A stretch of DNA of 64,000 nucleotides, taken from contig CM097885.1 of NCBI GenBank assembly GCA_044892525.1, forward strand, positions 13,704,001-13,768,000. The letters run 5' to 3'. Under the pieces are notes generated by a model. The model did not search any database and was not told the DNA's origin. It saw nothing but the letters and a program-made list of their open reading frames with translations. The translations under genes were made by a program, and so were the position numbers. Source of the stretch: Schmidtea polychroa (taxonomy: Eukaryota). Below, in pieces: positions 1,519 to 54,834 of this stretch (positions within the stretch are counted from its first letter, which is position 1; each line of letters opens with the position of its first letter).

Positions 1519-1612
1519 AACCAACGATATTTAATTTTTTAATAATAAAATGTCGACAATTAATTTAAGCAACTATAGCAACCTGATCTACTTTTTTTAA
1601 AATACACCCATT

Positions 1613-2209: not shown

Positions 2210-2217
2210 TTGATTAA

Positions 2218-3228: not shown

Positions 3229-3252
3229 TTATTAATAATTTAAAATGAATCT

Positions 3253-4017: not shown

Positions 4018-4065
4018 TTCTTTAGTAGTAAATTCATATAGTAAAAATCCTTATAGTAAAAATTC

Positions 4066-4530: not shown

Positions 4531-4552
4531 TTTGTATTTTGAAACTTCGTAT

Positions 4553-5434: not shown

Positions 5435-5456
5435 TTTAATGGTATCAAAAATGGTA

Positions 5457-6035: not shown

Positions 6036-6050
6036 TTTATAATAAACAAA

Positions 6051-6857: not shown

Positions 6858-6868
6858 GGCTTGTCGAC

Positions 6869-8287: not shown

Positions 8288-8304
8288 TTTAAAATGTTAA
8301 AATA

Positions 8305-9597
8305 TTAAGAATCTCCCCTAACATTTTCAATAATTGAAATCTTTCCACCATATAATTTCATTTCTATTTTCTTTTCTTCTAATATTAATGTATATACTTT
8401 AGCTTTAAAATTAGAATCCTTTGTTACATGAAGTGTAACATCAACATTATTTATGGCTAATCGATCATCTTGGTCTGATACATTTATACAAAATATAGAA
8501 TATAAATTTTTGAATTCTTCTAAACTTAACTGCGGTTCAACTTTGAAATCATAACATGTTTCAATATAATTTAGATATGGGAATATGTTTTCATTATTTT
8601 CAATATTAAATTCCATTCTATTTATTGGATAATAAGAACTATTTAATTGAATTTGGATTGTTTTTAAATTATCATCTCCAATCTTTTGAATAAATAGATT
8701 GTTATTTTTTTGGAAAGATGAATCTGTTTCTTTGAATCCAATCAAGATATATCTTGGTCGGTATGCTAAATTTGCTACCTTTATAGAATATGTTGAACCC
8801 TCTGTCATACTAAATTCACTACAGATTCTATTTAAATAATTTACATTTATAGACTTGTTGGAATTTAATCTTTCAAGGAGTTTAATCTCAGAATGTGGGT
8901 TTAATGTCCATTCAGGTATATGTAATTCAAGTGTTGATAATTTTAATTTAGCTTTTGTATCTACAGCTCCATAGAACAATCTTTTATCACCTTCTACTCT
9001 ATTACAGATGAATTCTATAAAAACATTATGAAGTATACGATTATAGTTTTGAAGGAATCCAAACAAGTGTTTTATTTCAAAATAACCTTCAAATTTTTTA
9101 GATTTATAAAGTTCAGCTCTTTTATGGTAACCATGGTTTACATCTAAACCATCTTTATCTAAATCCCCTTTATTAACATCAGGAATCCAACCTGTTAATT
9201 CACCATATTCGTTTTTATAATCACAACCAGTCAAAATAAAATTTAACATTGTAGAATATACTCCCGGATGCAAAACAGTTTCAATTTCTGATGATCCTAG
9301 TTTTAATCTCATGTTGGAGAATAAATTTGGAAAGAAATTATTTTCTAGGGTTATATCTTTGTTTGCTTCAATTTCTAATTCTACTTTGTAATATAATTTG
9401 GCATTACAAATATCTATTGGGTTTGATGTTTGAAGAGATTGAAAAACTATATCACCCCTACGATTTAAGTTTGCAATAGATCCTGAAGTTGGCGAGATTT
9501 TTAAAATATCATTTTTTTAAATTTCATGAGTAAATTCTTTATTATAATCAAGATTTAATTTATTTTTTTCTTGAATTTTAAGATTTATATTATTCAT
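8305..9597 (-). pseudogene. Major capsid protein (double jelly-roll) with nonsense codon at 9517-9519
   Basis: Colinear and highly similar to the 438-aa ORF at 52147; codon 27 is TAA here and AAG in E2. Confidence 0.8.
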
Positions 9598-11480: not shown

Positions 11481-14212
11481 ATTAAAGATAGAAGATAAAA
11501 CTAGAGGGAAAACATTAAGTAAAGTCAAAAGAATTGATTAATGTTGCAGAACGTGCAAAGCCAGAGTGGTTATAGTGAGATTAGACTATTTTGAATAGTC
11601 AAAATAGGCATTTTATTGTGATGTTCTGAGTTTTGTAACTTGAAGTTTATACGAATTTGATTACAAATATACGTTTAGTGTTGTTTATCTAATTGTTGTT
11701 ACAGAACACATAGAGTCAGAAACACAGAGGTTAATACTTATAGTAGTATGTAGTAAGGACTCCAGCGCACTTTCAAGGTCATGGAATATCAAGATCAAAT
11801 ATAGGTCAATTGAATCATTTATTTATTTATTTATTTATTTTTTTTTTAAATTAACATTTTATTTAATTACTTCTTTTTAATTTTTTCTTTTTAATTTTAT
11901 TAATTAATTATTTTATGATGTTATATTTTAATTACTTACTTTATATAATTTTTAATTTATTACATTTAATTAATTTATTAGTTTATTAATATTTTATTTT
12001 AATTACTTACGCTTTATTATTATTTATTTTTATTTTTATTTATTTATTTTTTTTTATTTTATTATTTTTTTAATTAATTAATTTATTTTTTAATTTAAAT
12101 TTTATTTAATTACTTCTATTTATTTTTCTTTTTATTTTTCTTTTTTTTCTTTTTAATTTTATTAATTAATTATTTTATGATGTTATATTTTAATTACTTA
12201 CTTTAGTTAATTTTTAATTTATTACATTTAATTAATTTATTATATATTTTTTTATTATATATATTTTAGATTATAGTTTAAATTATTATTAACCTTAAAA
12301 TCAAATCAATATGTTTTACCAAAGGTTTTAAACAAACTCTCGATTTGAAAACTAAAACTTAAATTTTCTTTTGGAAATAAACACATTAAATAAATGCAAC
12401 GCTATAATTAGTAGGTTAATGCTTTTCAAATGAAATATTTATCTAAACTTGAAGACAAAAAATTACAGTGTTTTTCACTTAAATTAAAAATATTAAAAGA
12501 TATACTAATCAGGAAAGAAACAAAATTTATAGAAAGTAATTACATTATTCATTCAAGTAAAGGTAAACCACCTCATGCAATGAAACGAAACTGATTAACA
12601 CTGATATAAACTTCTCTTATTATGCTCTTTAATTTCTCCCTTTATATGTTGTTTCTCTTTTGTATTGAACCAGAATGGCAACTTGATTAAAATTTAAATT
12701 CTTTTTAAAAGGCTCTCTCTGCTAGTCTGTGAAATCAAACTCAAATAATAGCTCACGAGGACCCGAAAGTTTTTCAAATTATATTTTTTGGTTTTAGCTT
12801 GACAGGTTCACAATTGTTGAATGATGAGGGTAGGACCATCACCACATTCACCCTCAACAAATACTATATGAAGGGGCACAGGAAATATAGGGTCAATATA
12901 TGTGCCGAAGAAAGGCGATAGATCCGAGATGTGACCATGCGACCCAATTAATTCCAAAAACAATTCAATCAATCCAAGTCAATTCAAAACAATCTGAAAA
13001 CATGACAATTGACTATCCTTGAACTATTTGACAATTTATGCATATTTTTTATATTCTTTATCATCTATGTGAAAATGATTTATGTGTATTTTTATTTTGA
13101 CAATTAATCGTTTGACAATTACGTATGATCAGTTATATATATTTTTATGGTATCGGGTGTATATATTTAATAGCTTGAGTATTTTATTTTTGATTAATCT
13201 TTTAATCGGTATAAATAAATGATTTCAATATAATTTTTATCTATACAAGGGAAATATATTTTAAATAAATTAATAATAATATGAAAAACAAAATTTTAAT
13301 TAAAGGTAAAATTCCCTTTTCAAAAAGCAGAAATAAAATCATTAAAAAACAGCTGGAAAGATTTAGTCAGAATAATTCAAGTATTTTTGAATTAATTGAA
13401 AATAAAAATAAAATAACATCTGTAAGAAAAATAATATAATCTATTCTTAAAATCACATTCGAAAAAAATACATTCTTAATATTACAATTGAAATAATTTG
13501 AGTATAGTATAAATACCCCAAATATATTTAGTATATTTGCCAAAAATTAGCGTTATAGCGATTTCGAAGGTTAATTCGTAGAAATAATTAAAACCCGAGA
13601 TAGCACAAAATTGTCTCACAAAATTTTGAAGAAAGCAGTAATTTTTACATAAGCTCGCATTACATAGCATATTAACAAAATACATATTTGTAATCATTTT
13701 AAAGTAGCTCGAAAGCAATTGAATAAAAGAAATAATTGTTTAAATTAATAATACTATTTTATTTGGAAATTTGCACTATTTATTTTAGGTAATTTTTATT
13801 ATTAATAAATATTTATACTGAGACTTGGTTTTATTTATATAAGAACCAGCAAAGTTGAGTGTTTCAAATATTGGGACCTCAACACAATTTTATCTGTCAA
13901 ACTCGGGTATCACGTTCCTAATTAAATAATAAAATATCATTTAAAAATCAGATTTATTGACAAAAAATTATAAATAAAAATACAAGTTAAAGATCATATT
14001 GAAATAAAATTGTTTTAAGCTGCACAGTAGAATTGCTAGTAGAGTCTGTTACTTATGCGGCATTCAGTTTCCTGTTTTACTTTTGTTTGAACTTTCCCAT
14101 GTGAGGTTTTGTTAGTTTCCTCTGGCTCGTTGTGACAGTAGACATCGATTGTTTCTCCAAGAGTACATAAAGTTCAGATAACACATTTTCCCAGAGTTTT
14201 AATTAAATAAGT

Positions 14213-15334
14213 AGTAGTATGTAGTAAGGACTCCAGCGCACTTTCAAGGTCATGGAATATCAAGATCAAATATAGGTCAATTGAATCATTTATTTATTTA
14301 TTTTTTTTTTATTATTTTTTTTTTAAATTAACATTTTATTTAATTACTTCTTTTTAATTTTTTCTTTTTAATTTTATTAATTAATTATTTTATGATGTTA
14401 TATTTTAATTACTTACTTTATTTAATTTTTAATTTATTACATTTAATTAATTTATTAGTTTATTAATATTTTATTTTAATTACTTACGCTTTATTATTAT
14501 TTATTTTTATTTTTATTTATTTATTTTTTTTTATTTTATTATTTTTTTAATTAATTTATTTATTTTTTAATATAAATTTTATTTAATTACTTCTATTTAT
14601 TTTTCTTTTTATTTTTATTTTTTTTCTTTTTAATTTTATTAATTAATTATTTTATGATGTTATATTTTAATTACTTACTTTAGTTAATTTTTAATTTATT
14701 ACATTTAATTAATTTATTAGTTTATTAATATTTTATTTTAATTACTTACGCTATTTAATTATTATTATTATTTTATTTATTTATTTATTTTTTTTTATTT
14801 ATTATTTTTTATTTATTTATTTATTTATTTATTAATTAATTTATTTTTATTTATTTATTTTTATTTTTTTTTAATTAAAATTTTATTTAATTACTTCAAT
14901 TTATTTATTTATTTTTTTTTTATTTTTTAATTTTCTTAATTAATTATTTTATTATGTTTTTATTTTAGTTACTTACTTTAGTTAATTTTTAATTTATTAC
15001 ATTTAATTAATTTATTAGTTTATTAATATTTTATTTTAATTACTTACGCTTTATTATTATTTATTTTTATTTTTATTTATTTATTTTTTTTTATTTTATT
15101 ATTTTTTTAATTAATTTATTTATTTTTTAATTTAAATTTTATTTAATTACTTCTATTTATTTTTATTTTTATTTTTATTTTTTTTCTTTTTAATTTTATT
15201 AATTAATTATTTTATGATGTTATATTTTAATTACTTACTTTAGTTAATTTTTAATTTATTACATTTAATTAATTAATTAGTTTATTAATATTTTATTTTA
15301 ATTACTAATGTTATTTAATTATTATTATTATTAT

Positions 15335-15370
<36 letters not shown>

Positions 15371-15375
15371 TTTTT
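14213..15375 (+). repeat. E3 terminal repeat (inverted copy): ~75-bp unique end plus AT-rich tandem array
   Basis: Same sequence as 11742-12240 and the reverse complement of 26615-27515; the number of TTAATTACTTAC-containing units differs between copies. Confidence 0.85.
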
Positions 15376-15691
15376 TAAATTTTACATTTACATTATATTC
15401 TAACAAGAGCGTAAATTATAACAGTAATATTTCAATTTGAATAAAATTTTAATGAGAAATTATTTAATTTATTATAAAATAAAACGCTGAGTTAATTTTA
15501 GATAAACCGGATATTAATTTTTCGGAAAAAATAAATAAATAAATAAAATAAACACGAAAATAATATTTCTTACTTGAAACTAATTATCTAAATTAATTGG
15601 ACAAATAAATAATTAAATGATAAAACACATTTTAATTAACTAAGTCAAATAATTCACAATATATATTTTATTATTCACATAAATTTAATTG

Positions 15692-18600
15692 TTAAAGTGC
15701 TTGTTTCGATTTGCATTCATTTATAGACGGAGCAGTTGCAATATGCATTTGGCGAATATTATAGTGACCGTAGGCATAGCTTTCATTAGAATTGAACCAA
15801 TATCTTTTATCATCCAAACATTGGAGAGCTCGTTTTTCTGTAATGAAAGTATACAACTGATGATTAACACTTCCTATTCTCTTTTGTTGGATGCTCACTG
15901 TTCCACCATCAGTATACACTTTTTTATAAGCTTCATGGGTGATATTAGAATTTGTAAGACTTATTCCTTTGGCTTTTAGAGTGTTTTATCGCCTTGGAGT
16001 GAGTAGCATTTGGGTCGAAGAAACACCCATTCTTTATATAATAACCCTTTATTCTCATCCTTAACTTTCCCGATTACCGAACAAATTTTATCAGAGAACA
16101 ATGGATCAGTCACTGGATAATTTGAAGTATCTAGGAGCCCATCTTCAATCATTTTTGGATATAGTTGTAAGCGTAAATCAACATTTTTACACTCTAAAAA
16201 GAAGGAATCTGTGTCACCGGCTACGATATTAATTTGACAATTGAATTCTTCTCTATAACTCTGTAGTTCTTTATATTGAAACTGGTACATGCGAAGTTTA
16301 GATAAATCAAGTACGGTTTGTCCAATATACATTGGTCTATCTAAACACACCATTTCCTTATCAAGTATAACAGCAATGAGATCATCCGCAATCTTGATGC
16401 TACGACGAAACATAGGATTACTACAATAAGTTATCAATCTTTTGCTTTTGCTGCATAATCTCAAATTTATACGTTTCTTCAAGTTTTCCACAGTTTTACC
16501 GTATAAACTGTTGTTCTTTAACTTATAATAATCTCGCTGAAACGAATCCGTACTAGCTGCTCTCATTTTGGTATTGTAATCAATATATCCTTTGAAAATA
16601 GCCACTTGCTTGAATTCTACAGCACGATTAACTTTTGTGACCTTTGCGCCGTAACTCATCCACTCTGTCAAAATTCTACCATTAACTACATAGTTTTTCT
16701 TAGGCTCATGAGTTAACAACAGCTTTTCAACTTTACTACCAGGTGGATAACAAAGCTCAGGAGCTATAGGTAAATCATCTAGCTTATCTTGTATACTATC
16801 AGGAATGACGATGTCAACCTCTAGAACATATCCACGATATCCATCAAACTCATCCCCATTTGCACATCTTTCAACAATACCATTCATTTCAGTCTGATCA
16901 TTTATCCATCTAAATTCACCAATAGGAAGTTTTTGCGACAGTGCCCATCCATATAAATTATTAACATCTAGGTATGACATTTGTGTTGATTCATCAGCTT
17001 CAACATGATGTTTGTTGATAAATGTCATTCCACCACGAATACCAGCTTCAAATAAACGGTAAAGCTCTGGATCTTGAATAAGTTCTACCGGTTCAGGTAA
17101 CTGTTTAATAGCTGATGCCCAACTTAATCCGGGTATGGAAACAAACGATAAAGCCTCAAGTCCATCTTCGTCAAATGTTTTTTCTCTGAAAGCTTCAAAA
17201 ACATCGGCCAACAGAAAAACATCCAGCTTGAGATATACTAGCATGTAATCTAGCAGTGTCTCACAGTTGTATTGTTGCCAAATTCGATTTGCATGTATAT
17301 AATCTTCTTCACTAACTCCCTCCCAAATCAGTGGTAATTCTGTTATTGACTGTAAAGCATCCATTGATGTAGCCATATCATAAGGAAAAATGGTTTTACA
17401 AGTCATCATCTGCGATTCGAAAACATCTGAGGTCAGTGGAAGACATGGTAAATTTTTTGATAAATTTGCCAAGCTGCTATTTAAAAATTGTAAAGAATCA
17501 ATGAATCTAATTCTTCTGCCTTTCGATGTCGCTGTAAATGTGAGAAACTTTTCTGTTGATTGAGGAATAACATTTAAATTCCAATCAGGGAATTTTCCAA
17601 TTGCATATTTTAATATATGATGAATGTCATATCCACGAAGATTATGAAATACAACAGGTAAAGACGGATTGATTCTTCTAGCCAAGTTGCAATCTTGACA
17701 TGGTGCTCCGAGATATTGACCAGTAAAATGATCATGATCTCGAACAGGTATATTGATAATCTTTTTACAAAGGTAGCAATGAGTTTGATTCGTAAATTCT
17801 TCCTGCTGTTCCCAAGTGAGTTCCATCATTTCCTTTGATCCATTAATTTTATACCACGGATAAACTATGTCTGTAGCTATATCATCCAATGCTTGTATAA
17901 ACTTAATGATACAGTTTTTCCCAACAAATGTTTCATTTCGGATCGGACAACCTTGATGAAGAAGCACAAATTCAGATGCAATCGGCTCATGTTTTTGGAA
18001 GTGCTTGTCATCTAGAGGTAATATCGATTCAAAGTCCGCGTAGACAACAAACTGCTGTTTTATAGTTTTACTCCAGTCTTTAAATTCGATATATTTATTC
18101 TCTGGCATTGAGTATAGAGTCGTCCGCTCCACATTCTTCCTACAAAGACCTATATGTCTTTCAAAAGCAGGACGTTTTTGAAACCCATGAAGACATGTAT
18201 GACACCAATGTGATTGGATTCTGACTCCTTCTACTCTATCTCTGTAATTGAGCAGTCGATCGAGATTAGTTACAGCCAAAAAATGATAATTTAATTCTAA
18301 AATTTAGTTAATATTTTTAATGATTAAAGGAAATATTACCTTCTTCAATCAATAAGAGATATATCTGAGATCCCGTCGAAGTACTTCTATATACCAAGTC
18401 AACGAACGGATTCTTGAAAATATCATTAGTTTTTTGTTTAATTGGATCTTTATTATATTTGAGAACATTGATCGCTAGATTTGGATTCATTGCTTCAAAT
18501 TGGCAAATGTTAACCAACTTCATCGGAAACCATTCAAATTTCCATTTTAAGTCTTAAAAACAAAATTCAATGATATATGACATTATATATATATATATAT

Positions 18601-19679
18601 ATATATTACCACTTAAGTTATATTTTGTTGTTCTTTCTCTATCCCGACGTATGTCATCATAACGTAATACGGCCAGTATGCTATATAAAAAGCAGAATTG
18701 ATCATTATTTTGAACATTAACTAAAGCCTGGCAGTTTTTCAGGTAATTTGGCGTTTTAATGTAACTTGAACCTAAGTAAATATCTTGATTTATATATAAT
18801 AATGTAAATAAACTTACCAGATACATGTATTATGTCTGATAATTTAGTTAAAATCATAGTAACTTCTAATATTTTATGAATTCTCCACCCACTACTTTGT
18901 TGAGTGTATTTCTCCAACTTTTCTTTTAATTTTTCAATTCCATCATTAATAAATGAAGATGACATTGTAATTGCTTTATTCGACAAACACCATTTTTTAA
19001 TTTCACCATCCTCTTTGATAAACTCTGCACAAAGTCCAAATTGGATTTTTACTGTACCCATTCGTTGAATATGATCTTCTATTTCTTTGATGAGACAATC
19101 TGGAACAACAATGTCAGGAGAATTAATTGCAGATACATCGCTTGTCAATTCAACACGAGAACCATTTAAGTCAGACTCCCGACGTGGACACAATTGTATG
19201 TTAGAATCTCCATTTCCGTAAAATATTGACTTTCGTTTTGTGGTGCCAGAGTTTTGTCTAACTATATTTATAATTAATATTAAACAACTTAAATAACATA
19301 ACTTGTAACATATTCTTTAATCTGCTTAGGATCGTATGATGTATTCATTTTCGATTGTACTATAAAAATTAATAATTGTTAATAGTAGAAAGAGTATTAC
19401 TTTTAGTGATCATCCTGCTCTTCGTTTCTTCGAATCTTCTAAGATGGTGTCCGTGTTGTCGTACAAACATTAACCACCTACCTGGTGATATAATGAGACA
19501 TTCCGGACATATGTAACCCGATAAGGTAGAGTCATTTATCTTGAAATATGATGATGTAACTGATTTACAGTTCTCCACATCTTCATGACTTTCGGCAATA
19601 CAAAATTTATATAAACTGCATCCGTTCACTAAAAGAAAATAATCATTAATATTAGATAGAGAATAAAAAATTATTCACT
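15692..19679 (-). CDS. polB: Intron-containing pPolB, mirror copy (introns 19629-19678, 19360-19400, 19262-19302, 18772-18817, 18553-18609, 18297-18339; frameshift near 15985)
   Basis: Reverse complement of the 22309-26298 gene model. Confidence 0.85.
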
Positions 19680-19949
19680 TATATAAGTTAAATTAAAAGT
19701 TTAAATGACAAACATTTGAAAAGTTACTGCTTATATATTACACATGATTACATTCTGACCAACCAAAATCAAGGAAGGGGTAGGAAAAATAAATATATTC
19801 TGACCAATCAAAATCATGGAAGGGGTAGGAAAAATAAATGCATTACGTTGCAGTATTTTAAAATTTAAATTTTAAAACACATTTTAATGCTAAAGTTGAC
19901 TTATTCAACATTTTCATAATAATTTAATAAAAAAATAATGCGATGAACC

Positions 19950-20600
19950 CACAAAGTAATATCATTTTTCATCAAATTGCAAAACAGTAATAACGTTTTC
20001 ATAAAATTGTAACAAAGTAATAACATATTTCAGATAAATTTTCAACAGTTGTAAAATATTTAAGCAAATTGTAACAAGATTAGAAAATATTACAACAAAG
20101 TAGTAACATATTTCAGAAAATTTCAACAAAGTTGTAAAATATTTATCAAATTGTAACTAAAATAATAAAAATATTGCAACAAAGTAATAAAATAATGATG
20201 TTAATTGGGACAAATCAATACATTATTTCGAAGACGGACAACAAATTAAAAAGAATATTGTAATAAATTGTGAAGTCTTTCAGTAAATTACAACAAAGTA
20301 ATAACATATTTCGGAAATATTTCAACAAAGTTGTAAAATATTTATCAAATTGTAACTAAAATAATAAAAATATTGCAACAAAGTAATAAAATAATGATGT
20401 TAATTGGAACAAATCAATGCATTATTTCGAAGACGGACAACAAATTAAAAAGAATATTGTAATAAATTGTGAAGTCTTTCAGTAAATTACAACAAAGTAA
20501 TAACATATTTCGGAAATATTTTACCAGATGTAAAATATTTAAGCAAATTGTTATAAGATTATAAAAATATTGCAACAAAGTAATAAAATAATACAACATT
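19950..20600 (-). repeat. Degenerate tandem array (~199-bp period), left arm
   Basis: Repeated CAACAAAGTAATAA submotifs; mirror of 21390-22040. Confidence 0.8.
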
Positions 20601-21389
20601 TTAAACTCTAGATCAATCCATTTTATAGAAAATTAAATTTTATCTCTATAATATATGAATAAATATACAAGGAAATTACGTTAACTGTATGAAAAATACA
20701 AATTTATCGTAAAAACATGTGTGTATTACACACAAAGCGACAAACTAAAGTTTTAATTGAGCCATTTTGTAGAGAATTAAATTCTGCCTATACATTGTTA
20801 CACTTAAATCCCAATCGAACAAAGAGAAAAGAGAGAAAAAGAGAGAGAAAAAACAGTAGAGTAGGGTATTGTGTGGACCCGAGAACAAAGACATATGACG
20901 TCATCGATGACGTCACAAAGACATATGAGGAGGGGGTATTTTTTTAAAATTTTTTTTTAAATTTTTTTTAAAAATTTTTTTTTAAAATTTTTTTATATTA
21001 CGTTGCGGTATTTTAAAATTTATATTACGTTGCGGTATTTTAAAATTTAATTATATTTTATTCACATCATTCGAAAGGTCTTGAAGAGATCTATGCAAAG
21101 CTTTCACCCGGGTCCACACAATACCCTACTCTACTGTTTTTTCTCTCTTTTTCTCTCTTTTTTCATTGTTCAATTGGGATTTAAGTGTAACAATGTATAG
21201 GCAGAATTTAATTCTCTACAAAATGGCTCAATTAAAACTTTAGTTTGTCGCTTTGTGTGTAATACACACATGTTTTTACGATAAATTTGTATTTTTCATA
21301 CAGTTAACGTAATTTCCTTGTATATTTATTCATATATTATAGAGATAAAATTTAATTTTCTATAAAATGGATTGATCTAGAGTTTAAAA

Positions 21390-22040
21390 TGTTGTATTAT
21401 TTTATTACTTTGTTGCAATATTTTTATAATCTTATAACAATTTGCTTAAATATTTTACATCTGGTAAAATATTTCCGAAATATGTTATTACTTTGTTGTA
21501 ATTTACTGAAAGACTTCACAATTTATTACAATATTCTTTTTAATTTGTTGTCCGTCTTCGAAATAATGCATTGATTTGTTCCAATTAACATCATTATTTT
21601 ATTACTTTGTTGCAATATTTTTATTATTTTAGTTACAATTTGATAAATATTTTACAACTTTGTTGAAATATTTCCGAAATATGTTATTACTTTGTTGTAA
21701 TTTACTGAAAGACTTCACAATTTATTACAATATTCTTTTTAATTTGTTGTCCGTCTTCGAAATAATGTATTGATTTGTCCCAATTAACATCATTATTTTA
21801 TTACTTTGTTGCAATATTTTTATTATTTTAGTTACAATTTGATAAATATTTTACAACTTTGTTGAAATTTTCTGAAATATGTTACTACTTTGTTGTAATA
21901 TTTTCTAATCTTGTTACAATTTGCTTAAATATTTTACAACTGTTGAAAATTTATCTGAAATATGTTATTACTTTGTTACAATTTTATGAAAACGTTATTA
22001 CTGTTTTGCAATTTGATGAAAAATGATATTACTTTGTGGG
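21390..22040 (+). repeat. Degenerate tandem array (~199-bp period), right arm
   Basis: (A/T)TTT(C)CGAAATATGTTA-type motif recurs at ~21471, 21670 and 21869; shorter TTATTACTTTGTTG subrepeats. Confidence 0.8.
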
Positions 22041-22149
22041 TTCATCGCATTATTTTTTTATTAAATTATTATGAAAATGTTGAATAAGTCAACTTTAGCA
22101 TTAAAATGTGTTTTAAAATTTAAATTTTAAAATACTGCAACGTAATGCA

Positions 22150-22260
22150 TTTATTTTTCCTACCCCTTCCATGATTTTGATTGGTCAGAATATATTTATT
22201 TTTCCTACCCCTTCCTTGATTTTGGTTGGTCAGAATGTAATCATGTGTAATATATAAGCA
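22150..22260 (+). promoter_or_regulatory. Putative Pol II promoter of E3 pPolB
   Basis: Duplicated TTTTCCTACCCCTTCC.TGATTTTG(A/G)TTGGTCAGAAT unit (inverted CCAAT-like) followed by TATATAAG at 22251, about 58 bp before the predicted start. Confidence 0.5.
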
Positions 22261-22308
22261 GTAACTTTTCAAATGTTTGTCATTTAAACTTTTAATTTAA
22301 CTTATATA

Positions 22309-25300
22309 AGTGAATAATTTTTTATTCTCTATCTAATATTAATGATTATTTTCTTTTAGTGAACGGATGCAGTTTATATAAATTTTGTATTGCCGAAAGT
22401 CATGAAGATGTGGAGAACTGTAAATCAGTTACATCATCATATTTCAAGATAAATGACTCTACCTTATCGGGTTACATATGTCCGGAATGTCTCATTATAT
22501 CACCAGGTAGGTGGTTAATGTTTGTACGACAACACGGACACCATCTTAGAAGATTCGAAGAAACGAAGAGCAGGATGATCACTAAAAGTAATACTCTTTC
22601 TACTATTAACAATTATTAATTTTTATAGTACAATCGAAAATGAATACATCATACGATCCTAAGCAGATTAAAGAATATGTTACAAGTTATGTTATTTAAG
22701 TTGTTTAATATTAATTATAAATATAGTTAGACAAAACTCTGGCACCACAAAACGAAAGTCAATATTTTACGGAAATGGAGATTCTAACATACAATTGTGT
22801 CCACGTCGGGAGTCTGACTTAAATGGTTCTCGTGTTGAATTGACAAGCGATGTATCTGCAATTAATTCTCCTGACATTGTTGTTCCAGATTGTCTCATCA
22901 AAGAAATAGAAGATCATATTCAACGAATGGGTACAGTAAAAATCCAATTTGGACTTTGTGCAGAGTTTATCAAAGAGGATGGTGAAATTAAAAAATGGTG
23001 TTTGTCGAATAAAGCAATTACAATGTCATCTTCATTTATTAATGATGGAATTGAAAAATTAAAAGAAAAGTTGGAGAAATACACTCAACAAAGTAGTGGG
23101 TGGAGAATTCATAAAATATTAGAAGTTACTATGATTTTAACTAAATTATCAGACATAATACATGTATCTGGTAAGTTTATTTACATTATTATATATAAAT
23201 CAAGATATTTACTTAGGTTCAAGTTACATTAAAACGCCAAATTACCTGAAAAACTGCCAGGCTTTAGTTAATGTTCAAAATAATGATCAATTCTGCTTTT
23301 TATATAGCATACTGGCCGTATTACGTTATGATGACATACGTCGGGATAGAGAAAGAACAACAAAATATAACTTAAGTGGTAATATATATATATATATATA
23401 TATATAATGTCATATATCATTGAATTTTGTTTTTAAGACTTAAAATGGAAATTTGAATGGTTTCCGATGAAGTTGGTTAACATTTGCCAATTTGAAGCAA
23501 TGAATCCAAATCTAGCGATCAATGTTCTCAAATATAATAAAGATCCAATTAAACAAAAAACTAATGATATTTTCAAGAATCCGTTCGTTGACTTGGTATA
23601 TAGAAGTACTTCGACGGGATCTCAGATATATCTCTTATTGATTGAAGAAGGTAATATTTCCTTTAATCATTAAAAATATTAACTAAATTTTAGAATTAAA
23701 TTATCATTTTTTGGCTGTAACTAATCTCGATCGACTGCTCAATTACAGAGATAGAGTAGAAGGAGTCAGAATCCAATCACATTGGTGTCATACATGTCTT
23801 CATGGGTTTCAAAAACGTCCTGCTTTTGAAAGACATATAGGTCTTTGTAGGAAGAATGTGGAGCGGACGACTCTATACTCAATGCCAGAGAATAAATATA
23901 TCGAATTTAAAGACTGGAGTAAAACTATAAAACAGCAGTTTGTTGTCTACGCGGACTTTGAATCGATATTACCTCTAGATGACAAGCACTTCCAAAAACA
24001 TGAGCCGATTGCATCTGAATTTGTGCTTCTTCATCAAGGTTGTCCGATCCGAAATGAAACATTTGTTGGGAAAAACTGTATCATTAAGTTTATACAAGCA
24101 TTGGATGATATAGCTACAGACATAGTTTATCCGTGGTATAAAATTAATGGATCAAAGGAAATGATGGAACTCACTTGGGAACAGCAGGAAGAATTTACGA
24201 ATCAAACTCATTGCTACCTTTGTAAAAAGATTATCAATATACCTGTTCGAGATCATGATCATTTTACTGGTCAATATCTCGGAGCACCATGTCAAGATTG
24301 CAACTTGGCTAGAAGAATCAATCCGTCTTTACCTGTTGTATTTCATAATCTTCGTGGATATGACATTCATCATATATTAAAATATGCAATTGGAAAATTC
24401 CCTGATTGGAATTTAAATGTTATTCCTCAATCAACAGAAAAGTTTCTCACATTTACAGCGACATCGAAAGGCAGAAGAATTAGATTCATTGATTCTTTAC
24501 AATTTTTAAATAGCAGCTTGGCAAATTTATCAAAAAATTTACCATGTCTTCCACTGACCTCAGATGTTTTCGAATCGCAGATGATGACTTGTAAAACCAT
24601 TTTTCCTTATGATATGGCTACATCAATGGATGCTTTACAGTCAATAACAGAATTACCACTGATTTGGGAGGGAGTTAGTGAAGAAGATTATATACATGCA
24701 AATCGAATTTGGCAACAATACAACTGTGAGACACTGCTAGATTACATGCTAGTATATCTCAAGCTGGATGTTTTTCTGTTGGCCGATGTTTTTGAAGCTT
24801 TCAGAGAAAAAACATTTGACGAAGATGGACTTGAGGCTTTATCGTTTGTTTCCATACCCGGATTAAGTTGGGCATCAGCTATTAAACAGTTACCTGAACC
24901 GGTAGAACTTATTCAAGATCCAGAGCTTTACCGTTTATTTGAAGCTGGTATTCGTGGTGGAATGACATTTATCAACAAACATCATGTTGAAGCTGATGAA
25001 TCAACACAAATGTCATACCTAGATGTTAATAATTTATATGGATGGGCACTGTCGCAAAAACTTCCTATTGGTGAATTTAGATGGATAAATGATCAGACTG
25101 AAATGAATGGTATTGTTGAAAGATGTGCAAATGGGGATGAGTTTGATGGATATCGTGGATATGTTCTAGAGGTTGACATCGTCATTCCTGATAGTATACA
25201 AGATAAGCTAGATGATTTACCTATAGCTCCTGAGCTTTGTTATCCACCTGGTAGTAAAGTTGAAAAGCTGTTGTTAACTCATGAGCCTAAGAAAAACTAT

Positions 25301-26298
25301 GTAGTTAATGGTAGAATTTTGACAGAGTGGATGAGTTACGGCGCAAAGGTCACAAAAGTTAATCGTGCTGTAGAATTCAAGCAAGTGGCTATTTTCAAAG
25401 GATATATTGATTACAATACCAAAATGAGAGCAGCTAGTACGGATTCGTTTCAGCGAGATTATTATAAGTTAAAGAACAACAGTTTATACGGTAAAACTGT
25501 GGAAAACTTGAAGAAACGTATAAATTTGAGATTATGCAGCAAAAGCAAAAGATTGATAACTTATTGTAGTAATCCTATGTTTCGTCGTAGCATCAAGATT
25601 GCGGATGATCTCATTGCTGTTATACTTGATAAGGAAATGGTGTGTTTAGATAGACCAATGTATATTGGACAAACCGTACTTGATTTATCTAAACTTCGCA
25701 TGTACCAGTTTCAATATAAAGAACTACAGAGTTATAGAGAAGAATTCAATTGTCAAATTAATATCGTAGCCGGTGACACAGATTCCTTCTTTTTAGAGTG
25801 TAAAAATGTTGATTTACGCTTACAACTATATCCAAAAATGATTGAAGATGGGCTCCTAGATACTTCAAATTATCCAGTGACTGATCCATTGTTCTCTGAT
25901 AAAATTTGTTCGGTAATCGGGAAAGTTAAGGATGAGAATAAAGGGTTATTATATAAAGAATGGGTGTTTCTTCGACCCAAATGCTACTCACTCCAAGGCG
26001 ATAAAACACTCTAAAAGCCAAAGGAATAAGTCTTACAAATTCTAATATCACCCATGAAGCTTATAAAAAAGTGTATACTGATGGTGGAACAGTGAGCATC
26101 CAACAAAAGAGAATAGGAAGTGTTAATCATCAGTTGTATACTTTCATTACAGAAAAACGAGCTCTCCAATGTTTGGATGATAAAAGATATTGGTTCAATT
26201 CTAATGAAAGCTATGCCTACGGTCACTATAATATTCGCCAAATGCATATTGCAACTGCTCCGTCTATAAATGAATGCAAATCGAAACAAGCACTTTAA
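22309..26298 (+). CDS. polB: Intron-containing pPolB, ~1236 aa if repaired (introns 22310-22359, 22588-22628, 22686-22726, 23171-23216, 23379-23437, 23651-23693; 1-bp frameshift near 26005)
   Basis: Splicing joins the ORF fragments in frame and restores GSSYIKTP..NVQNNDQFCF, FPMKL..FE and HFLAVTNLDRLL. Also present: YADFES, DHDHFTG..CQDCN, FHNLRGYD, YLDVNNLYG, KLKNNSLYGK, GDTDS; KAKG and DDKR lie in the shifted frame. Confidence 0.88.
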
Positions 26299-26619
26299 CA
26301 ATTAAATTTATGTGAATAATAAAATATATATTGTGAATTATTTGACTTAGTTAATTAAAATGTGTTTTATCATTTAATTATTTATTTGTCCAATTAATTT
26401 AGATAATTAGTTTCAAGTAAGAAATATTATTTTCGTGTTTATTTTATTTATTTATTTATTTTTTCCGAAAAATTAATATCCGGTTTATCTAAAATTAACT
26501 CAGCGTTTTATTTTATAATAAATTAAATAATTTCTAATTAAAATTTTATTCAAATTGAAATATTACTGTTATAATTTACGCTCTTGTTAGAATATAATGT
26601 AAATGTAAAATTTAAAAAA

Positions 26620-26655
<36 letters not shown>

Positions 26656-29600
26656 ATAATAATAATAATAATTAAATAACATTAGTAATTAAAATAAAAT
26701 ATTAATAAACTAATTAATTAATTAAATGTAATAAATTAAAAATTAACTAAAGTAAGTAACTAAAATAAAAACATAATAAAATAATTAATTAAGAAAATTA
26801 AAAAATAAAAAAAAAATAAATAAATAAATTGAAGTAATTAAATAAAATTTTAATTAAAAAAAAATAAAAATAAATAAATAAAAATAAATAAATTAATAAA
26901 TAAATAAATAAATAAATAAAAAATAATAAATAAAAAAAAATAAATAAATAAATAAAATAATAATAATAATTAAATAGCGTAAGTAATTAAAATAAAATAT
27001 TAATAAACTAATAAATTAATTAAATGTAATAAATTAAAAATTAACTAAAGTAAGTAATTAAAATATAACATCATAAAATAATTAATTAATAAAATTAAAA
27101 AGAAAAAAAATAAAAATAAAAATAAAAATAAATAGAAGTAATTAAATAAAATTTAAATTAAAAAATAAATAAATTAATTAAAAAAATAATAAAATAAAAA
27201 AAAATAAATAAATAAAAATAAAAATAAATAATAATAAAGCGTAAGTAATTAAAATAAAATATTAATAAACTAATAAATTAATTAAATGTAATAAATTAAA
27301 AATTAAATAAAGTAAGTAATTAAAATATAACATCATAAAATAATTAATTAATAAAATTAAAAAGAAAAAATTAAAAAGAAGTAATTAAATAAAATGTTAA
27401 TTTAAAAAAAAAATAATAAAAAAAAAATAAATAAATAAATGATTCAATTGACCTATATTTGATCTTGATATTCCATGACCTTGAAAGTGCGCTGGAGTCC
27501 TTACTACATACTACTACTTATTTAATTAAAACTCTGGGAAAATGTGTTATCTGAACTTTATGTACTCTTGGAGAAACAATCGATGTCTACTGTCACAACG
27601 AGCCAGAGGAAACTAACAAAACCTCACATGGGAAAGTTCAAACAAAAGTAAAACAGGAAACTGAATGCCGCATAAGTAACAGACTCTACTAGCAATTCTA
27701 CTGTGCAGCTTAAAACAATTTTATTTCAATATGATCTTTAACTTGTATTTTTATTTATAATTTTTTGTCAATAAATCTGATTTTTAAATGATATTTTATT
27801 ATTTAATTAGGAACGTGATACCCGAGTTTGACAGATAAAATTGTGTTGAGGTCCCAATATTTGAAACACTCAACTTTGCTGGTTCTTATATAAATAAAAC
27901 CAAGTCTCAGTATAAATATTTATTAATAATAAAAATTACCTAAAATAAATAGTGCAAATTTCCAAATAAAATAGTATTATTAATTTAAACAATTATTTCT
28001 TTTATTCAATTGCTTTCGAGCTACTTTAAAATGATTACAAATATGTATTTTGTTAATATGCTATGTAATGCGAGCTTATGTAAAAATTACTGCTTTCTTC
28101 AAAATTTTGTGAGACAATTTTGTGCTATCTCGGGTTTTAATTATTTCTACGAATTAACCTTCGAAATCGCTATAACGCTAATTTTTGGCAAATATACTAA
28201 ATATATTTGGGGTATTTATACTATACTCAAATTATTTCAATTGTAATATTAAGAATGTATTTTTTTCGAATGTGATTTTAAGAATAGATTATATTATTTT
28301 TCTTACAGATGTTATTTTATTTTTATTTTCAATTAATTCAAAAATACTTGAATTATTCTGACTAAATCTTTCCAGCTGTTTTTTAATGATTTTATTTCTG
28401 CTTTTTGAAAAGGGAATTTTACCTTTAATTAAAATTTTGTTTTTCATATTATTATTAATTTATTTAAAATATATTTCCCTTGTATAGATAAAAATTATAT
28501 TGAAATCATTTATTTATACCGATTAAAAGATTAATCAAAAATAAAATACTCAAGCTATTAAATATATACACCCGATACCATAAAAATATATATAACTGAT
28601 CATACGTAATTGTCAAACGATTAATTGTCAAAATAAAAATACACATAAATCATTTTCACATAGATGATAAAGAATATAAAAAATATGCATAAATTGTCAA
28701 ATAGTTCAAGGATAGTCAATTGTCATGTTTTCAGATTGTTTTGAATTGACTTGGATTGATTGAATTGTTTTTGGAATTAATTGGGTCGCATGGTCACATC
28801 TCGGATCTATCGCCTTTCTTCGGCACATATATTGACCCTATATTTCCTGTGCCCCTTCATATAGTATTTGTTGAGGGTGAATGTGGTGATGGTCCTACCC
28901 TCATCATTCAACAATTGTGAACCTGTCAAGCTAAAACCAAAAAATATAATTTGAAAAACTTTCGGGTCCTCGTGAGCTATTATTTGAGTTTGATTTCACA
29001 GACTAGCAGAGAGAGCCTTTTAAAAAGAATTTAAATTTTAATCAAGTTGCCATTCTGGTTCAATACAAAAGAGAAACAACATATAAAGGGAGAAATTAAA
29101 GAGCATAATAAGAGAAGTTTATATCAGTGTTAATCAGTTTCGTTTCATTGCATGAGGTGGTTTACCTTTACTTGAATGAATAATGTAATTACTTTCTATA
29201 AATTTTGTTTCTTTCCTGATTAGTATATCTTTTAATATTTTTAATTTAAGTGAAAAACACTGTAATTTTTTGTCTTCAAGTTTAGATAAATATTTCATTT
29301 GAAAAGCATTAACCTACTAATTATAGCGTTGCATTTATTTAATGTGTTTATTTCCAAAAGAAAATTTAAGTTTTAGTTTTCAAATCGAGAGTTTGTTTAA
29401 AACCTTTGGTAAAACATATTGATTTGATTTTAAGGTTAATAATAATTTAAACTATAATCTAAAATATATTTCAATTGTTGTGTAGTAAGTTTTGGATTTT
29501 CATTCGTTTAAAAGCTTTGAAATCAGTGTTTTCAATTATTCTGTTTCATATAATACAAAATTTCAGTTTGAATCAATATATAATATACAGTTGTATTTAT

Positions 29601-33432: not shown

Positions 33433-35488
33433 CACTAGAAGCATGGATGTGTCAAAATTGACACATGACAAGCTTAATAACTAATTTTCTTGATAAGTAT
33501 AAATCATTTCACAATGAATTTGTATGACAATTATTTATTTCATGTGCTCATTCAGATGCATATGATATAGTTCATTTATTCTTATTGATATAAGGAATCT
33601 AACAATGCTACCTATAACTACGGATGTGTCAGATTCGACACAGCAGTTAAATTGAAGAAAATTGAGCGTCTCTACTATCTGAATGTGTGTGTGTGTGTAG
33701 TATTGAATTAGACACAGTACGTATGAAATAATTGTTATTGGCTGCTGTGAGTAGTTAGATTGTTCATATTATCATGACGATTACTGTTAGTCCTTTATTC
33801 GTCACATGTCTCCACCTCCACGACGTCAAGCAACCATACACGCACTAAAAATTCTAATTAACATCAACTGCGATGAATCTAATGATGCTGTAGAAATAGC
33901 GGTGTCTGATGATGCATTTTCGTCTGCTTCTGATGAGGAAATGTCGAATGAATTAAGGGACGATTTTCACTTCCCTCACCACTTGCTCAACGTATCGGAA
34001 ACAAGCCATGCAGGTCTACTACTGTAACACAACAAAAGTCAGATATGACTGATTGTGCAATTGGGAAAGATGAAACAGAATGGCGAACATTTAGTCAACT
34101 GCGTTCTGGCGGAAGAAAAACAATTCAAAATGCGCGACGTATCAAATGGGGGTCAAACTACTTATGCAATTCGTCGAGTGGATGATTCACCATATAGCTC
34201 ATTCAAGTTGTTTTTTGACGAGCCAATGCTTTGCCACATTCAAAAGTGTACAGAAGTAGAAGCTTGTTGCCAAGGTGAAATTTACTGGTTTGTTCCGTTG
34301 CATGAAATGCATACTTTCATAGGTTTGACCTATGCAAGAGGGGTACTCGGTAAGAATGTATCAATTGCCGAATGATGGTCTAAATAATGTTGAGAGAGAG
34401 AGAGAGAACCCGACAAGTTTGGCATCAAATTCTTTTTTTAGTTGATCTCCAGACGAAGTTTGTCTGCAACCGATTTCCGTATTTGGGCATAAATCATAGC
34501 AGACCAGCCAACCAAGCGCTTCCTTCATACGTTGTCCACACTCTATTACAAGGATATGAACGAGATGGTCACAAAGTCACTTGTGACAATTATTTTACAT
34601 CACTGAATTTGGTCGAAGAGTTACAATGTAAAGGTGTGAGTATGATCGGAACGATTCGTAATAATCGTCGTGAGTTGCCTTGGAGTCGCTCATGAAGAGT
34701 AAAACGTTATTTGATTCCAGCTTCTTCATTTCTGAAAATAAAACTATTCTAACAATAAAAAGAAAGTAGTGTCCCTCTTCAGTTCTACGCATGAGACAGT
34801 GTCAATAGACCTATCAAGCAGGAAGAAATTTAACATTATTTTTCTATAATTCCACAAAATGTGGAGTGGATTGTGTAGACCAAATGGTGCGCCAATATTC
34901 CACAAGATGTCAAAGATGGCTTGCGTGTATATTTTTTCATGTGCTCGGTATATGTTTGCTCAATTCTTAGATCATTTATAAATCGGTGAATAAGAGCCAA
35001 ATTTCAAGGCGTGATTTTCAAATGTCGCTTGTCAAACATCTTTGGTCACAAACTTCATTGCAACTACACAGCCATATTATTGTTCCCAATGTACGAAAAC
35101 GATGTCATTGTTTCGTTTCACAATGTCCTAACTTGTCTCTTATGCTATGTATTAAGTTTAATAAGAGTGTTTATGGAAACCATAACAATGGACAAAAGTA
35201 TGTTTACACTATATGTGCTTCGTGTTCATCGTCCCACACGTAACCATTACTTGTTTTATAATAATAAGTATTGTCTATACCGTCAAAATATGATTGTTTT
35301 CTTTTGTAACAGAAGGCTACGAGAGATGAAAACTCTCTCTGTTGTTCACTTTACATACATTTTAATTAACATGCCCTTTGACTAAAACACACATTGCGTT
35401 AAACGTAGCCATATTTAAAAAAAAGAGATTGTGTCAAAACTGACACATCCGTAGTTATAGGTACATTGTATTTTCCGGGCTTCAAGTA
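33433..35488 (+). mobile_element. Decayed piggyBac transposon
   Basis: TTAA|CACTAGAAGC left end and degenerate GCTTCAAGTA|CTAA right end; subterminal inverted repeat TACCTATAACTACGGATGTGTCAG (~33609) / CTGACACATCCGTAGTTATAGGTA (~35440). Confidence 0.8.
33806..35243 (+). pseudogene. piggyBac transposase pseudogene
   Basis: Fragments VTCDNYFTSLNL, GTIRNNRRELP, YNSTKCGVDCVDQM and a Cys-rich C-terminus; many stops and frameshifts. Confidence 0.85.
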
Positions 35489-40243: not shown

Positions 40244-43200
40244 TGTGAGTCTTCAGCTGAGAATTAAATATTTCACTGATTTATTAAACTAATTTTAAAT
40301 GATAAATAATTGACTATTAAAATAATTTTTAAAATAATTTTTAAATTGAATTTTTTAAATTGAAATTTTTAAATTGAAAATTAAATAAAATTTTTAAAAG
40401 AAGTTTTATTTGTAAATAATTTTTAAATAAAAATATTTTAAATATCGAAATTTTAATAAATAGTTTTGGAAATATTTTATTCAACGCTGAAAGTTTTTTT
40501 GAAAATTATACAATATTTCATTAAATAAATATTCGGAATTATGATGTTAACTTTTGAATCGGATTTAAAAAAAATAATTTAGAAGTTGTTTTAGCAGTTT
40601 CTAATATGGTCACCACGTCTTCATAATTTCTTCATAAAGAAGCTATTTCCAAACGATTTTCATAGAGGAGATGATGTTGAAACATTCATTAAAGAATGCG
40701 ATAGATATTTTAAAATGGCACTAATTTCTACTTCAATACTTCACGAATACTTTTTCACTTCATACACCAAAATATTAAATGTTATAAGGAAAGATTACGA
40801 AAGGCATTCGTCAAGAAAACAACGTTGACAGATGATTTACAATCAGCTATGTCCTATAGACTGACGAGCGAGGAGCCCGAAAAATATTTTACTATCATAG
40901 ACGAGTTAGTCAAAAAAATGAGTTAACCTAGGAAAGTTTAACAGAATATCTGCTGGTACACTGTGCAGCCGAGAAGACTTTGAGGCAAGAATTGTGTCTA
41001 AGTGACACCAAAGAAACAATGGAGGTAAAGAAAAAAATCAAGAAGCTACATTAATCTCGTATAGTTGCAGAAGAGATCTATGATGTGAGAGAAAGAAGGC
41101 CAGAACAGAATATAACAAGAAGTTACAGAGACGCGGTTACAAATCAAGCAAGACATATTGTATCACCAAGATATAATAATGAGCCGAGAGAGTATCGAGA
41201 GGAAAGACCGAACAGAACTAAGAACGAATGTTGGACATGCCACAAGGTAGGACATTTGAGTAGAGATTGCATAACAAAGAAGGTAGTTACATGTTTTATA
41301 TGTGTGAAGACGAGGACATGTAAGAATTTAGTATCCACAGATGCAGAGAAAAGTAGTCGAATGTTAGGCGTGTGGGAAGAGATTGTCAAAAAATAAAGTG
41401 TACAAGGTGTAGCTTGGGAGGTTATAAAGAGGCAAATTGTTACACAAATTTGGAGAGAATGAGATATTGGAGAATCAATGAAAACTTTAGTAGACAACAA
41501 GAGCGATACGATGCAGGGAATGGTTATCAAGGAACGAGAAAGGAAACAAGACAAGCAGATAAGAGATACATAGCATTCATAGACGAACCAAGTGATGAAA
41601 GAATAGAAGATAAATACGCCCCGATAGAAGAGGAGATAGTCGGGGCAGTGCATTAAACAGTGATGCTGACTTCCAAATTAATAATAATTATAATAAAAGT
41701 AAAATATCATGTATTATGGAAAACGATGTAAAAAATGCAGAGGTAACGGAAGAGGAAAATAATGTAATAAGGAAAGTAAACAGATTCATAAAAATGATTT
41801 TATAGAAAGAGAAAAAGAAAAAGAGAAAGGAGAAAAAGTAAAAATACAAATACTCACATTAGATGAATGGAAAATTGATATTATTAGTTATGATAAAATT
41901 CAAGGCCGAACAAGTGTAACTATTAGAATACAAGACCAGAAGATGGAATGCTTGCTCGATACAGGAGCTACAGTAAATGTCACGAGTTGCAGCAAATTGG
42001 AGAAACTTAAAGATGTAGAACTAACAACAACGCCTGATACATTGAGATGTGCAAATTATAGTGTTTTAGAAATGAAGGGTAAAGCAATATTAGAAATAGG
42101 AATAAATGGCAGGAAAAGAAGGGTAAAGTTAGTTTACGATAGTAAGATATATGACACCAGAGGTAATTGGAGGCATAGAGTTGCAAAAACAATTTGGTAA
42201 ACAACTAAAGTGACCAGTAGAAAAGGTCAAGAAAACAAAGCAAGAGTATATATGCAGTATCTAAGCCAAATTTGGAAAGACAATAACGGAGATGGAACGA
42301 TTTCAAAGAGCAAAAAATACATTAAAGATAAATAACCCGATACTACTGAATATTATAAAAAAGAATCAAAATGTTTTTATGGCTGATAAATGAGAGATTG
42401 GCTGCACAAAGCTGTTGAAACATAAAATAGAAACTCAAGGAAAACCGATAAATAATAAACCTTTGAGACAACCAGTCAACTTGGAAGGTAAAATTGATGA
42501 GGCAATAAAAATCTTATGGAAAAACAATATTATCAAAAAGTGTAATTCGCCATGGAACACTCCATTAATATGCGCCTGGAAGAAAGAAAAGCAAGATATC
42601 AGATTATGACTTGATTTCAGACAATTAAACATAGTAAAAGAGAGACAGGCTTTCCCTATGCCGTATATGGCAGAGATGCTAGATAAATTGGGTGGAGCAA
42701 AGTATTTCAGTTCGATAGATCTTGGAAATGCATATTATCAAGTAGAACCAGAAGATGAATCAAAGCTAAAAACGGCGTTTTCAACCAAATCAGGTCAATA
42801 CTGTTTTAACAGATTGCCATTTGGAATAGCAGTTGCACCAGCTACGTTTCAGGAACTGATGGAAAAAGTATTAATGGGTATGAGATATGCAGCAGTATAC
42901 CTTGACGATATTTTGATATTTTCAGAAACGATCAATCATTCCTACGAGGTTTTAAATGAAGTGCTGGACAAAATAGGAAAGGCGGGTCTTAGGATAAACC
43001 CTGAAAAGTGCCATATCCTTAAAGAGGAAGTCAAATTTTTAGGTCACATAATCAACAAAGATGGAATACAGACGAACCCGTCAAAGCTAGATGCGATTAA
43101 ATCATTTGAAAAGCCAAAATGTGTTAAAAATCTGAGAAGCTTCCTAGAAATATGCAATTACTACAGACGATTTATAAAAGAATACGCAAAAAAGCAAGAG

Positions 43201-54823: not shown

Positions 54824-54834
54824 GTCGACAAGCT

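What the first reader, a model, noticed from the sequence alone, without database searches (positions are those of the whole stretch)
22309..26298. Protein-primed DNA polymerase gene with six short introns, all phase 1, including one splitting the start codon
Seen: six GT..AG segments of 50, 41, 41, 46, 59 and 43 bp join the small ORFs and the 767-aa ORF into one frame, and each falls after codon position 1. The first creates the ATG (A 22309 + TG 22360-61). Splicing restores N-terminal Polinton pPolB motifs and adds a Cys/His-rich N-terminal module. All introns lie upstream of the exonuclease/polymerase core. Knowledge: Polinton genes are mostly intron-poor. Inference: phase-symmetric exons could be skipped in frame, giving alternative terminal-protein/polymerase isoforms, and a spliced gene implies nuclear Pol II expression. 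The first intron (donor GTGAAT) is the least certain.
Basis: partly seen in the sequence, partly recalled or inferred. Interest (0 to 1): 0.85.

Follow-up and report, generated by a model that had tools for sequence, protein, structure and literature searches.

The report
Intron-split polymerase of palindromic Polinton derivative
A mirror-symmetric jumping-DNA family carries its DNA-copying gene broken by six tiny gaps that all cut codons at the same point and are likely removed as ordinary host introns, a pattern that may record how new introns arise.

Summary
The six GT..AG gaps exist at the stated places and all are phase 1. They resemble host introns, keep their ends in 441 of 444 sites across 37 copies while taking most indels, and skipping them makes exons 4-7 collinear with unsplit relatives. 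Relatives from other data show intron-like read-through at positions 2 and 6. No junction was seen in RNA: the runs were contigs, possibly DNA, and several read through introns. Phase 1 is beyond chance and recurs in sister families. Exon-skipping isoforms are unsupported; I favour constitutive splicing to one terminal protein-protease-polymerase chain, with phase 1 explained by inheritance plus birth of introns as readable in-frame inserts. The scan noted the introns and the palindromes before, on other copies in this genome.

The parts
11742..27515 (.). Whole element between AGTAGT and ACTACT termini, near-perfect palindrome, no gene other than two pPolB copies
   Evidence: no other long ORF
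11736..11741 (+). 6-bp target-site duplication, left copy (right copy 27516-27521)
12259..14212 (.). Inverted copy of 2 kb of the right flank (27516-29469) inside the left end, followed by a second terminus at 14213
15692..19679 (-). Mirror copy of the same intron-split gene; 2 differences in 4040 columns, same frame break
20852..21136 (.). Non-palindromic centre between the arms
22180..22286 (+). Likely Pol II promoter: reverse CCAAT 22180, TATATAAG 22251-22258, initiator-like 22279-22286
   Evidence: sequence; TATA kept in 25 of 26 and initiator in 26 of 26 arms; motif names recalled
22309..22309 (+). Last base of exon 1, first base of the split start codon
   Evidence: 37 of 37 arms; exon 2 aligns from residue 2 of unsplit relatives
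22310..22359 (+). Intron 1 (50 nt, phase 1), least certain donor
22360..22587 (+). Exon 2: Cys/His module, probably two metal sites
   Evidence: no Pfam match
22588..22628 (+). Intron 2 (41 nt, phase 1)
22629..22685 (+). Exon 3: 57-nt linker exon, no homology support
22686..22726 (+). Intron 3 (41 nt, phase 1)
22727..23170 (+). Exon 4: terminal-protein (little-finger/PAD-like) domain
23171..23216 (+). Intron 4 (46 nt, phase 1) at the terminal protein/protease border; in frame and stop-free in 24 of 37 arms
23217..23378 (+). Exon 5: start of OTU-like protease with its Cys
23379..23437 (+). Intron 5 (59 nt, phase 1, AT microsatellite; 39-116 nt across copies)
23438..23650 (+). Exon 6: middle of OTU-like protease
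23651..23693 (+). Intron 6 (43 nt, phase 1), just before the protease His strand
23694..26014 (+). Exon 7 up to the frame break: protease His strand, exonuclease and polymerase core
26014..26298 (+). C-terminal 94 codons, in another frame in this copy
26301..26360 (+). Candidate poly(A) signals at 26301, 26318, 26354

Best explanation
The six gaps are likely ordinary host-type introns that are likely all spliced out to give one protein predicted to hold a Cys/His module, a terminal protein, an OTU-like protease and the polymerase, in a multi-copy element that has Polinton ends and 6-bp target duplications but no integrase or capsid gene. Shown: gene layout, collinearity with unsplit relatives, splice-site conservation, purifying selection in the spliced frame, ends, target duplications, arm identity. 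Inferred: host Pol II transcribes the gene; the protein primes replication from both ends and the protease frees the terminal protein (after Krupovic et al.); a capsid-bearing Polinton supplies integrase in trans; arms are copied from each other when a displaced strand folds back. Phase 1 is inferred to come from history, not from isoforms: the 5' introns are partly inherited, and with AT-rich GTAA..TAG ends phase 1 is the only phase in which a new in-frame insert in a protein loop can still be read through while splicing is weak. This particular copy is broken near its 3' end.
For: Exon borders abut in unsplit relatives (P0004: exon 4 ends at 233, exon 5 spans 235-287, exon 6 from 289, exon 7 from 360). 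441 of 444 intron ends are GT/AG in 37 arms; indels 30 in 280 intron bases (22 in the microsatellite intron) vs 2 in 1104 leader-exon bases. Shared variants in exons 4-6: 12 non-synonymous, 16 synonymous, ratio about 0.19, core 0.23, wrong frames mostly 0.9-2.4 (28 arms). Host short introns are 41-59 nt with the same donor and acceptor types. Seven unrelated short ORFs stop soon after an S/G/C residue near the intron-2 column; P0007 has a 15-residue AT-codon insert starting G-N-I exactly at intron 6. Introns 2-6 map to linkers or loops of the model. Phase 1 is the only readable phase for 8 of 12 introns in three families; host ends would be readable in phase 0/1/2 in 8/29/18 of 33. Intron 4 is in frame and stop-free in 24 of 37 arms. 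15 of 15 elements with both ends detected have matching 6-bp repeats. Arms share 112 private variants vs 46 on one arm in 9 elements.
Against: No spliced junction was listed in three possibly-RNA runs; all 7 contigs of X2 lack one, and contigs of X1, X2 and X4 run through introns 1-3 (the runs may be DNA and 47 joints were hidden). Splice-site columns are not significantly less variable than other intron columns (7/48 vs 62/232, p=0.10). Introns 1, 3 and 6 always, and intron 2 nearly always, carry a stop or frameshift today, so the readable state is seen only for intron 4, rarely 5, and one relative. In Drosophila new in-frame introns are selected to carry stops, the opposite trend (PMC2809761 passages). 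The read-through model gives only about 0.5 per intron (29 of 55), 0.02 for six. Exon 3 has no homology support.
Confidence: 0.6

Rival explanations
1. Phase 1 is kept because in-frame exon skipping makes useful isoforms, chiefly a terminal-protein-free polymerase by skipping exon 4, as adenoviruses make terminal protein and polymerase from separate mRNAs with shared leader exons.
For: Exon 4 holds the whole terminal-protein domain and intron 4 sits at its border with the protease; skipping exon 3 keeps an open frame; adenovirus precedent (PMC11304566 passages); some polintons encode TP separately (Krupovic passages).
Against: No skip junction seen (inconclusive). Does not explain introns 5 and 6, inside the protease fold. 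Skipping exon 2 loses the start codon. Family 2 and the family-4 copies examined, equally palindromic and abundant, have no intron in the TP/protease region. A TP-only product by retaining intron 4 fails in 24 of 37 arms, where retention is in frame.
Confidence: 0.12
2. The introns are real and constitutive, and the uniform phase is inheritance, exonisation of symmetric leader cassettes and luck (three or four independent gains after a G or A), with no read-through stage.
For: Families 2-5 share one phase-1 acceptor before the Cys/His module, and families 2 and 4 share a 57-nt middle leader exon; introns 2 and 6 are older than this family; G is enriched at codon position 1 (0.45); mobile intron-flanked domains prefer phase 1 (PMC3488318 passage); the scan selects odd patterns.
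Against: At least 8 distinct positions, all phase 1, against about 0.2-0.25 in the host; in-frame stop-free states of introns 4 and 6 are unexplained.
Confidence: 0.22
3. The gaps are not spliced: they are decayed insertions, or the leader is a dead relic and copies spread only passively.
For: Only unspliced contigs were listed; half of the arms have a broken last exon (18 of 36 open).
Against: GT/AG kept through large length changes, purifying selection in the spliced frame, same positions in distant relatives, host-like intron form.
Confidence: 0.06

Closest known systems
Polintons/Mavericks (adintovirus-type) with TP-vOTU-Exo-Pol pPolB (Krupovic et al., bioRxiv 10.1101/2024.03.18.585575, passages)
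   Same: Same domain order with protease Cys and His kept, AG..CT-type termini, 6-bp target duplication.
   Different: No integrase, ATPase, protease or capsid gene; inverted repeats swallow the whole gene; six introns, whereas intact vertebrate Mavericks are intronless (PMC8097293 passages) and the capsid-bearing Polinton next door has one unsplit pPolB frame.
Unnamed metagenomic pPolB clade (P0002-P0098)
   Same: Up to 62-65% identical core, same Cys/His module, TP and vOTU; family 1 nests among them.
   Different: Many are single unsplit ORFs; their element structure is unknown (only one contig, L049, could be read).
Introner-containing Polinton-like elements of dinoflagellates (bioRxiv 10.1101/2025.03.18.643946, first third of text)
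   Same: Spliceosomal introns inside integrated Polinton-like elements.
   Different: There the introns are transposon copies, mostly inserted after integration; here the six are unlike each other (1 of 15 pairs above shuffles) and are fixed parts of a spreading family.
Adenovirus E2B and IVa2 transcripts (PMC11304566 passages)
   Same: Spliced protein-primed replication genes; a start codon formed across a splice junction (IVa2 of THEV).
   Different: TP and polymerase are separate proteins and the vOTU is inactive there; here they are fused and no alternative mRNA is shown.
Intronisation and exitrons (PMC3488318, PMC4484396 passages)
   Same: Introns arising from readable coding sequence, often in flexible regions.
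   Different: Described in cellular genes; I saw no statement there that this route forces phase 1.

Membership tests
Polinton/Maverick (autonomous) | Protein-primed family B polymerase | tested here: met
   PF03175 E 7e-32
Polinton/Maverick (autonomous) | TP and active vOTU fused in front of the polymerase | tested here: met
   Model of an unsplit relative matches LF/PAD (Z 8.6, rmsd 2.4, 92 aligned) and OTU (Z 7.0, rmsd 3.4, 100 aligned), middling scores; window exons collinear, Cys and His kept
Polinton/Maverick (autonomous) | Terminal inverted repeats with AG..CT ends | tested here: met
   the AG..CT rule is recalled
Polinton/Maverick (autonomous) | 6-bp target-site duplication | tested here: met
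   15 of 15 elements with both ends detected among 30 stretches
Polinton/Maverick (autonomous) | Own retroviral-like integrase | tested here: not met
   No ORF over 101 aa other than pPolB inside 11742-27515
Polinton/Maverick (autonomous) | Capsid proteins, packaging ATPase, maturation protease | tested here: not met
   Absent inside the element; capsid, ATPase and integrase found only in the neighbouring Polinton
Major spliceosomal introns | GT..AG ends, host-like length and AT content | tested here: met
Major spliceosomal introns | Removal restores a conserved frame | tested here: met
   weakest for introns 2-3 around exon 3
Major spliceosomal introns | Junction-spanning RNA | tested here: inconclusive
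   contigs only, RNA status guessed, none listed
Introners | Introns are related copies of one element | tested here: not met
   1 of 15 pairs above shuffles; copies outside this element were not sought
Adenovirus E2B-type alternative splicing | Separate TP and polymerase mRNAs from one leader | not testable with these tools
   no raw RNA reads offered
Adenovirus E2B-type alternative splicing | Inactivated vOTU | tested here: not met
   Cys and His present

The most novel reading that the evidence does not exclude
These capsid-less palindromic replicons are a distinct Polinton-derived class whose polymerase gene repeatedly gains introns as readable in-frame loop inserts, forced into phase 1 by the genetic code, with intron 4 caught mid-way; the resulting symmetric terminal-protein exon is then skipped on purpose to make a terminal-protein-free polymerase, an independent route to the adenovirus arrangement.
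Probability: 0.1. Interest if true: 0.88.

Novelty: new variant of a known kind. Interest (0 to 1): 0.58.

Why it matters
Genes of intact Mavericks are described as intronless, so annotators miss or truncate such polymerases. How new spliceosomal introns arise is still open; here a young family with at least 150 copies has introns absent from close relatives, a strict phase rule over at least 8 positions in sister families, and one intron that is in frame and stop-free in some copies and not in others, so splicing efficiency can be compared copy by copy in existing RNA data. The pPolB-only palindromic layout also bears on how Polintons copy their ends.

Tried and rejected
Spliced proteins in the protein collection: exon 4 against longer proteins and exon 5 against near-length proteins found nothing (weak word searches). 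A copy with introns 4-6 precisely lost: a search with the unsplit relative returned 150 of 9345 candidates; the 30 loci checked were other families, none family 1; no proof of absence. Viral contigs: no relative; an alignment query was unusable. PDB sequences: no match. ESM Atlas for exon 2: best 0.85, no family. Pfam TDH hit on the tail (E 0.015, under cut-off) taken as chance. TP-only protein by intron-4 retention rejected. Introner origin rejected. Fold-back assembly artefact rejected for the palindromes, since direct target repeats flank them, but not excluded for the 2-kb inverted flank copy. First tree run timed out; the tree used is FastTree on 59 of 93 rows. Literature: ten full-text searches showed no paper on an intron-split pPolB or a fully palindromic pPolB-only Polinton; Repbase and subscription journals are not covered, supplements were not read. 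Host species was not determined; a planarian is my guess from contig sizes and AT content (recalled).

Full report
Observation. The six GT..AG segments are at 22310-22359, 22588-22628, 22686-22726, 23171-23216, 23379-23437 and 23651-23693, with the stated lengths, all after codon position 1, 12-17% GC against 30-37% in exons. The long frame is a protein-primed polymerase. It stops at 26014; the conserved last 94 codons follow in another frame, so this copy is broken there. In 18 of 36 arms with full cover the last exon is open to its natural end.

Are they introns? A search with the last exon returned a clade of metagenomic pPolBs, up to 62-65% identical apart from two near-identical fragments, many as single ORFs of 1100-1300 aa. 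Each exon translated alone aligns to these in order with one residue left for each split codon: in P0004 exon 4 ends at 233, exon 5 covers 235-287, exon 6 projects to 289, exon 7 to 360; exon 2 starts at residue 2 of P0010, P0015 and P0028, as a split ATG predicts; exon 3 has no match. Enumerating frame-keeping alternatives, the proposed ends rank first for introns 3-6 and second of two for intron 2. Across 37 arms, 441 of 444 ends are GT or AG (two GC donors, one lost acceptor), introns hold 30 indel events in 280 bases and leader exons 2 in 1104; more distant copies (91-95%) keep most ends through lengths such as 45-93 nt for intron 4, with a few lost sites. Shared variants show purifying selection in the spliced frame (exons 4-6 about 0.19, core 0.23). 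Host myosin introns, called automatically, are mostly 41-59 nt with the same end types. Independent data point the same way at protein level: seven short ORFs homologous to exon 2 end soon after an S, G or C residue near the intron-2 column, one (P0121, 64%) with the same length as the window's own read-through, and P0007 carries a 15-residue AT-codon insert beginning G-N-I exactly at intron 6; their DNA could not be read. Against: no junction was listed in three guessed-RNA contig sets, contigs run through introns 1-3, and all 7 contigs of X2 are unspliced; these may be DNA and 47 joints were hidden. Splice columns are not significantly more invariant than other intron columns (p=0.10). I put splicing at about 0.9.

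Protein anatomy. I folded the N-terminal 420 residues of an unsplit natural relative (mean pLDDT 85.5). Residues 110-227 match the little-finger/PAD fold and 241-373 match OTU proteases at middling Z (8.6 and 7.0), the terminal protein and vOTU of Krupovic et al. (passages). Exon 2 is a Cys/His module, exon 3 a linker, exon 4 the terminal protein, exons 5-6 and the start of 7 the protease with Cys and His intact. Introns 2-4 fall in linkers, 5 and 6 in loops inside the protease.

The element. The gene lies twice, head to head, in arms 99-100% alike. The unit ends in AGTAGT..ACTACT; 15 of 15 elements with both ends detected, among 30 stretches, have a 6-bp direct repeat, and they range from one-gene forms of 6-7 kb to full palindromes of 12-14 kb. 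It holds no integrase or capsid gene. At least 150 arms exist (4335 candidates). In 9 two-arm elements 112 private variants are shared by both arms and 46 lie on one, so arms are copied from each other. I infer self-replication by protein priming, fold-back copying of arms, and integration by the integrase of capsid-bearing Polintons such as the neighbour, whose pPolB is one unsplit frame.

Why phase 1? Host phase 1 is 7 of 38 confident calls (20 of 81 overall); a composition null gives 0.003 for six. Earlier notes led me to sister families. Family 2 (56% identical core, separately nested among unsplit proteins in a FastTree tree) and family 4 are also palindromic, lack introns in the TP/protease region, and each has three predicted leader introns, all phase 1, with a 57-nt middle exon; families 2-5 share a phase-1 acceptor before the Cys/His module, two codons from family 1's. 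That is at least 8 distinct positions, all phase 1. Part is inheritance. For the rest, GTAA or GTGA donors put a stop in frame in phase 2 (noted in PMC2809761) and TAG acceptors do so in phase 0; phase 1 is the only readable phase for 8 of 12 element introns, and host-type ends would be readable in 8, 29 and 18 of 33 cases in phases 0, 1, 2. If introns began as in-frame loop inserts that worked spliced or unspliced, phase 1 follows; intron 4 is in frame and stop-free in 24 of 37 arms and P0007 shows that state for intron 6. This is inference: it gives about 0.02 for six, most introns now carry stops, and Drosophila shows the opposite selection.

Comparison and novelty. It works like a Polinton replication module but fails membership as an autonomous Polinton. 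Intact vertebrate Mavericks are intronless (PMC8097293 passages); introns in Polinton-like elements are known as introner insertions (first third read). Find-passages in three further papers showed no spliceosomal introns in pPolB, and the palindromes in a 2026 preprint are short terminal ones. Ten searches found no matching description; Repbase is not covered. The scan had already noted the same introns on another copy (e1-7879902; that locus is 96% identical), the palindromes (e1-8072377) and the leaders (e1-7879951, e1-7879963). New here: cross-dataset support for introns 2 and 6, a host phase baseline, and a testable reason for phase 1. Verdict: new variant of a known kind, interest 0.58.

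Noticed in passing
window 12259-14212 vs 27516-29469: The left end holds an inverted copy of 2 kb of right flank between two termini; arm copying that overran after insertion, or an assembly error. Not seen at this scale in the other 29 stretches.
   Followed up: partly
window 31-9312 and L021; window 52147-64000 and L022: Two capsid-bearing Polinton copies in opposite orientation (capsid, ATPase, integrase fused to a PLA2-like domain, unsplit pPolB); the right one is interrupted by a gag-pol retroelement at about 58050-62920.
   Followed up: partly
window 20852-21136; L033 region of C1:238.2 Mb: The centre between the arms varies: most copies have TGACGTCA-type words and a 27-bp repeat, one has an unrelated centre rich in TGACCTTG, a word also in the termini.
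   Followed up: no
L130-L131, L102: Elements nest in each other: a family-2 element sits in a family-3 pPolB gene with a 6-bp duplication, and a family-1 terminus lies in a family-2 leader.
   Followed up: partly
L231-L240: Further abundant pPolB families (4 and 5); the family-4 elements are 15-kb palindromes with AGTAGGTAG ends and 6-bp duplications; some family-5 copies have other long ORFs nearby.
   Followed up: partly
P0123, P0126, P0127, P0130, P0132, P0133, P0139, P0140: The exon-2 Cys/His module occurs as two or three tandem copies in other proteins; no Pfam family.
   Followed up: no
P0003-P0098: Many metagenomic relatives lie on contigs of only 3.6-7 kb, which could reflect one-gene elements or collapsed palindromes; P0002 and P0023 begin with unrelated residues mid-protease, perhaps further introns.
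   Followed up: no
window 34070-34695 and 42658-43535: Fragments resembling a DNA transposase and a reverse transcriptase (labels recalled, not tested).
   Followed up: no
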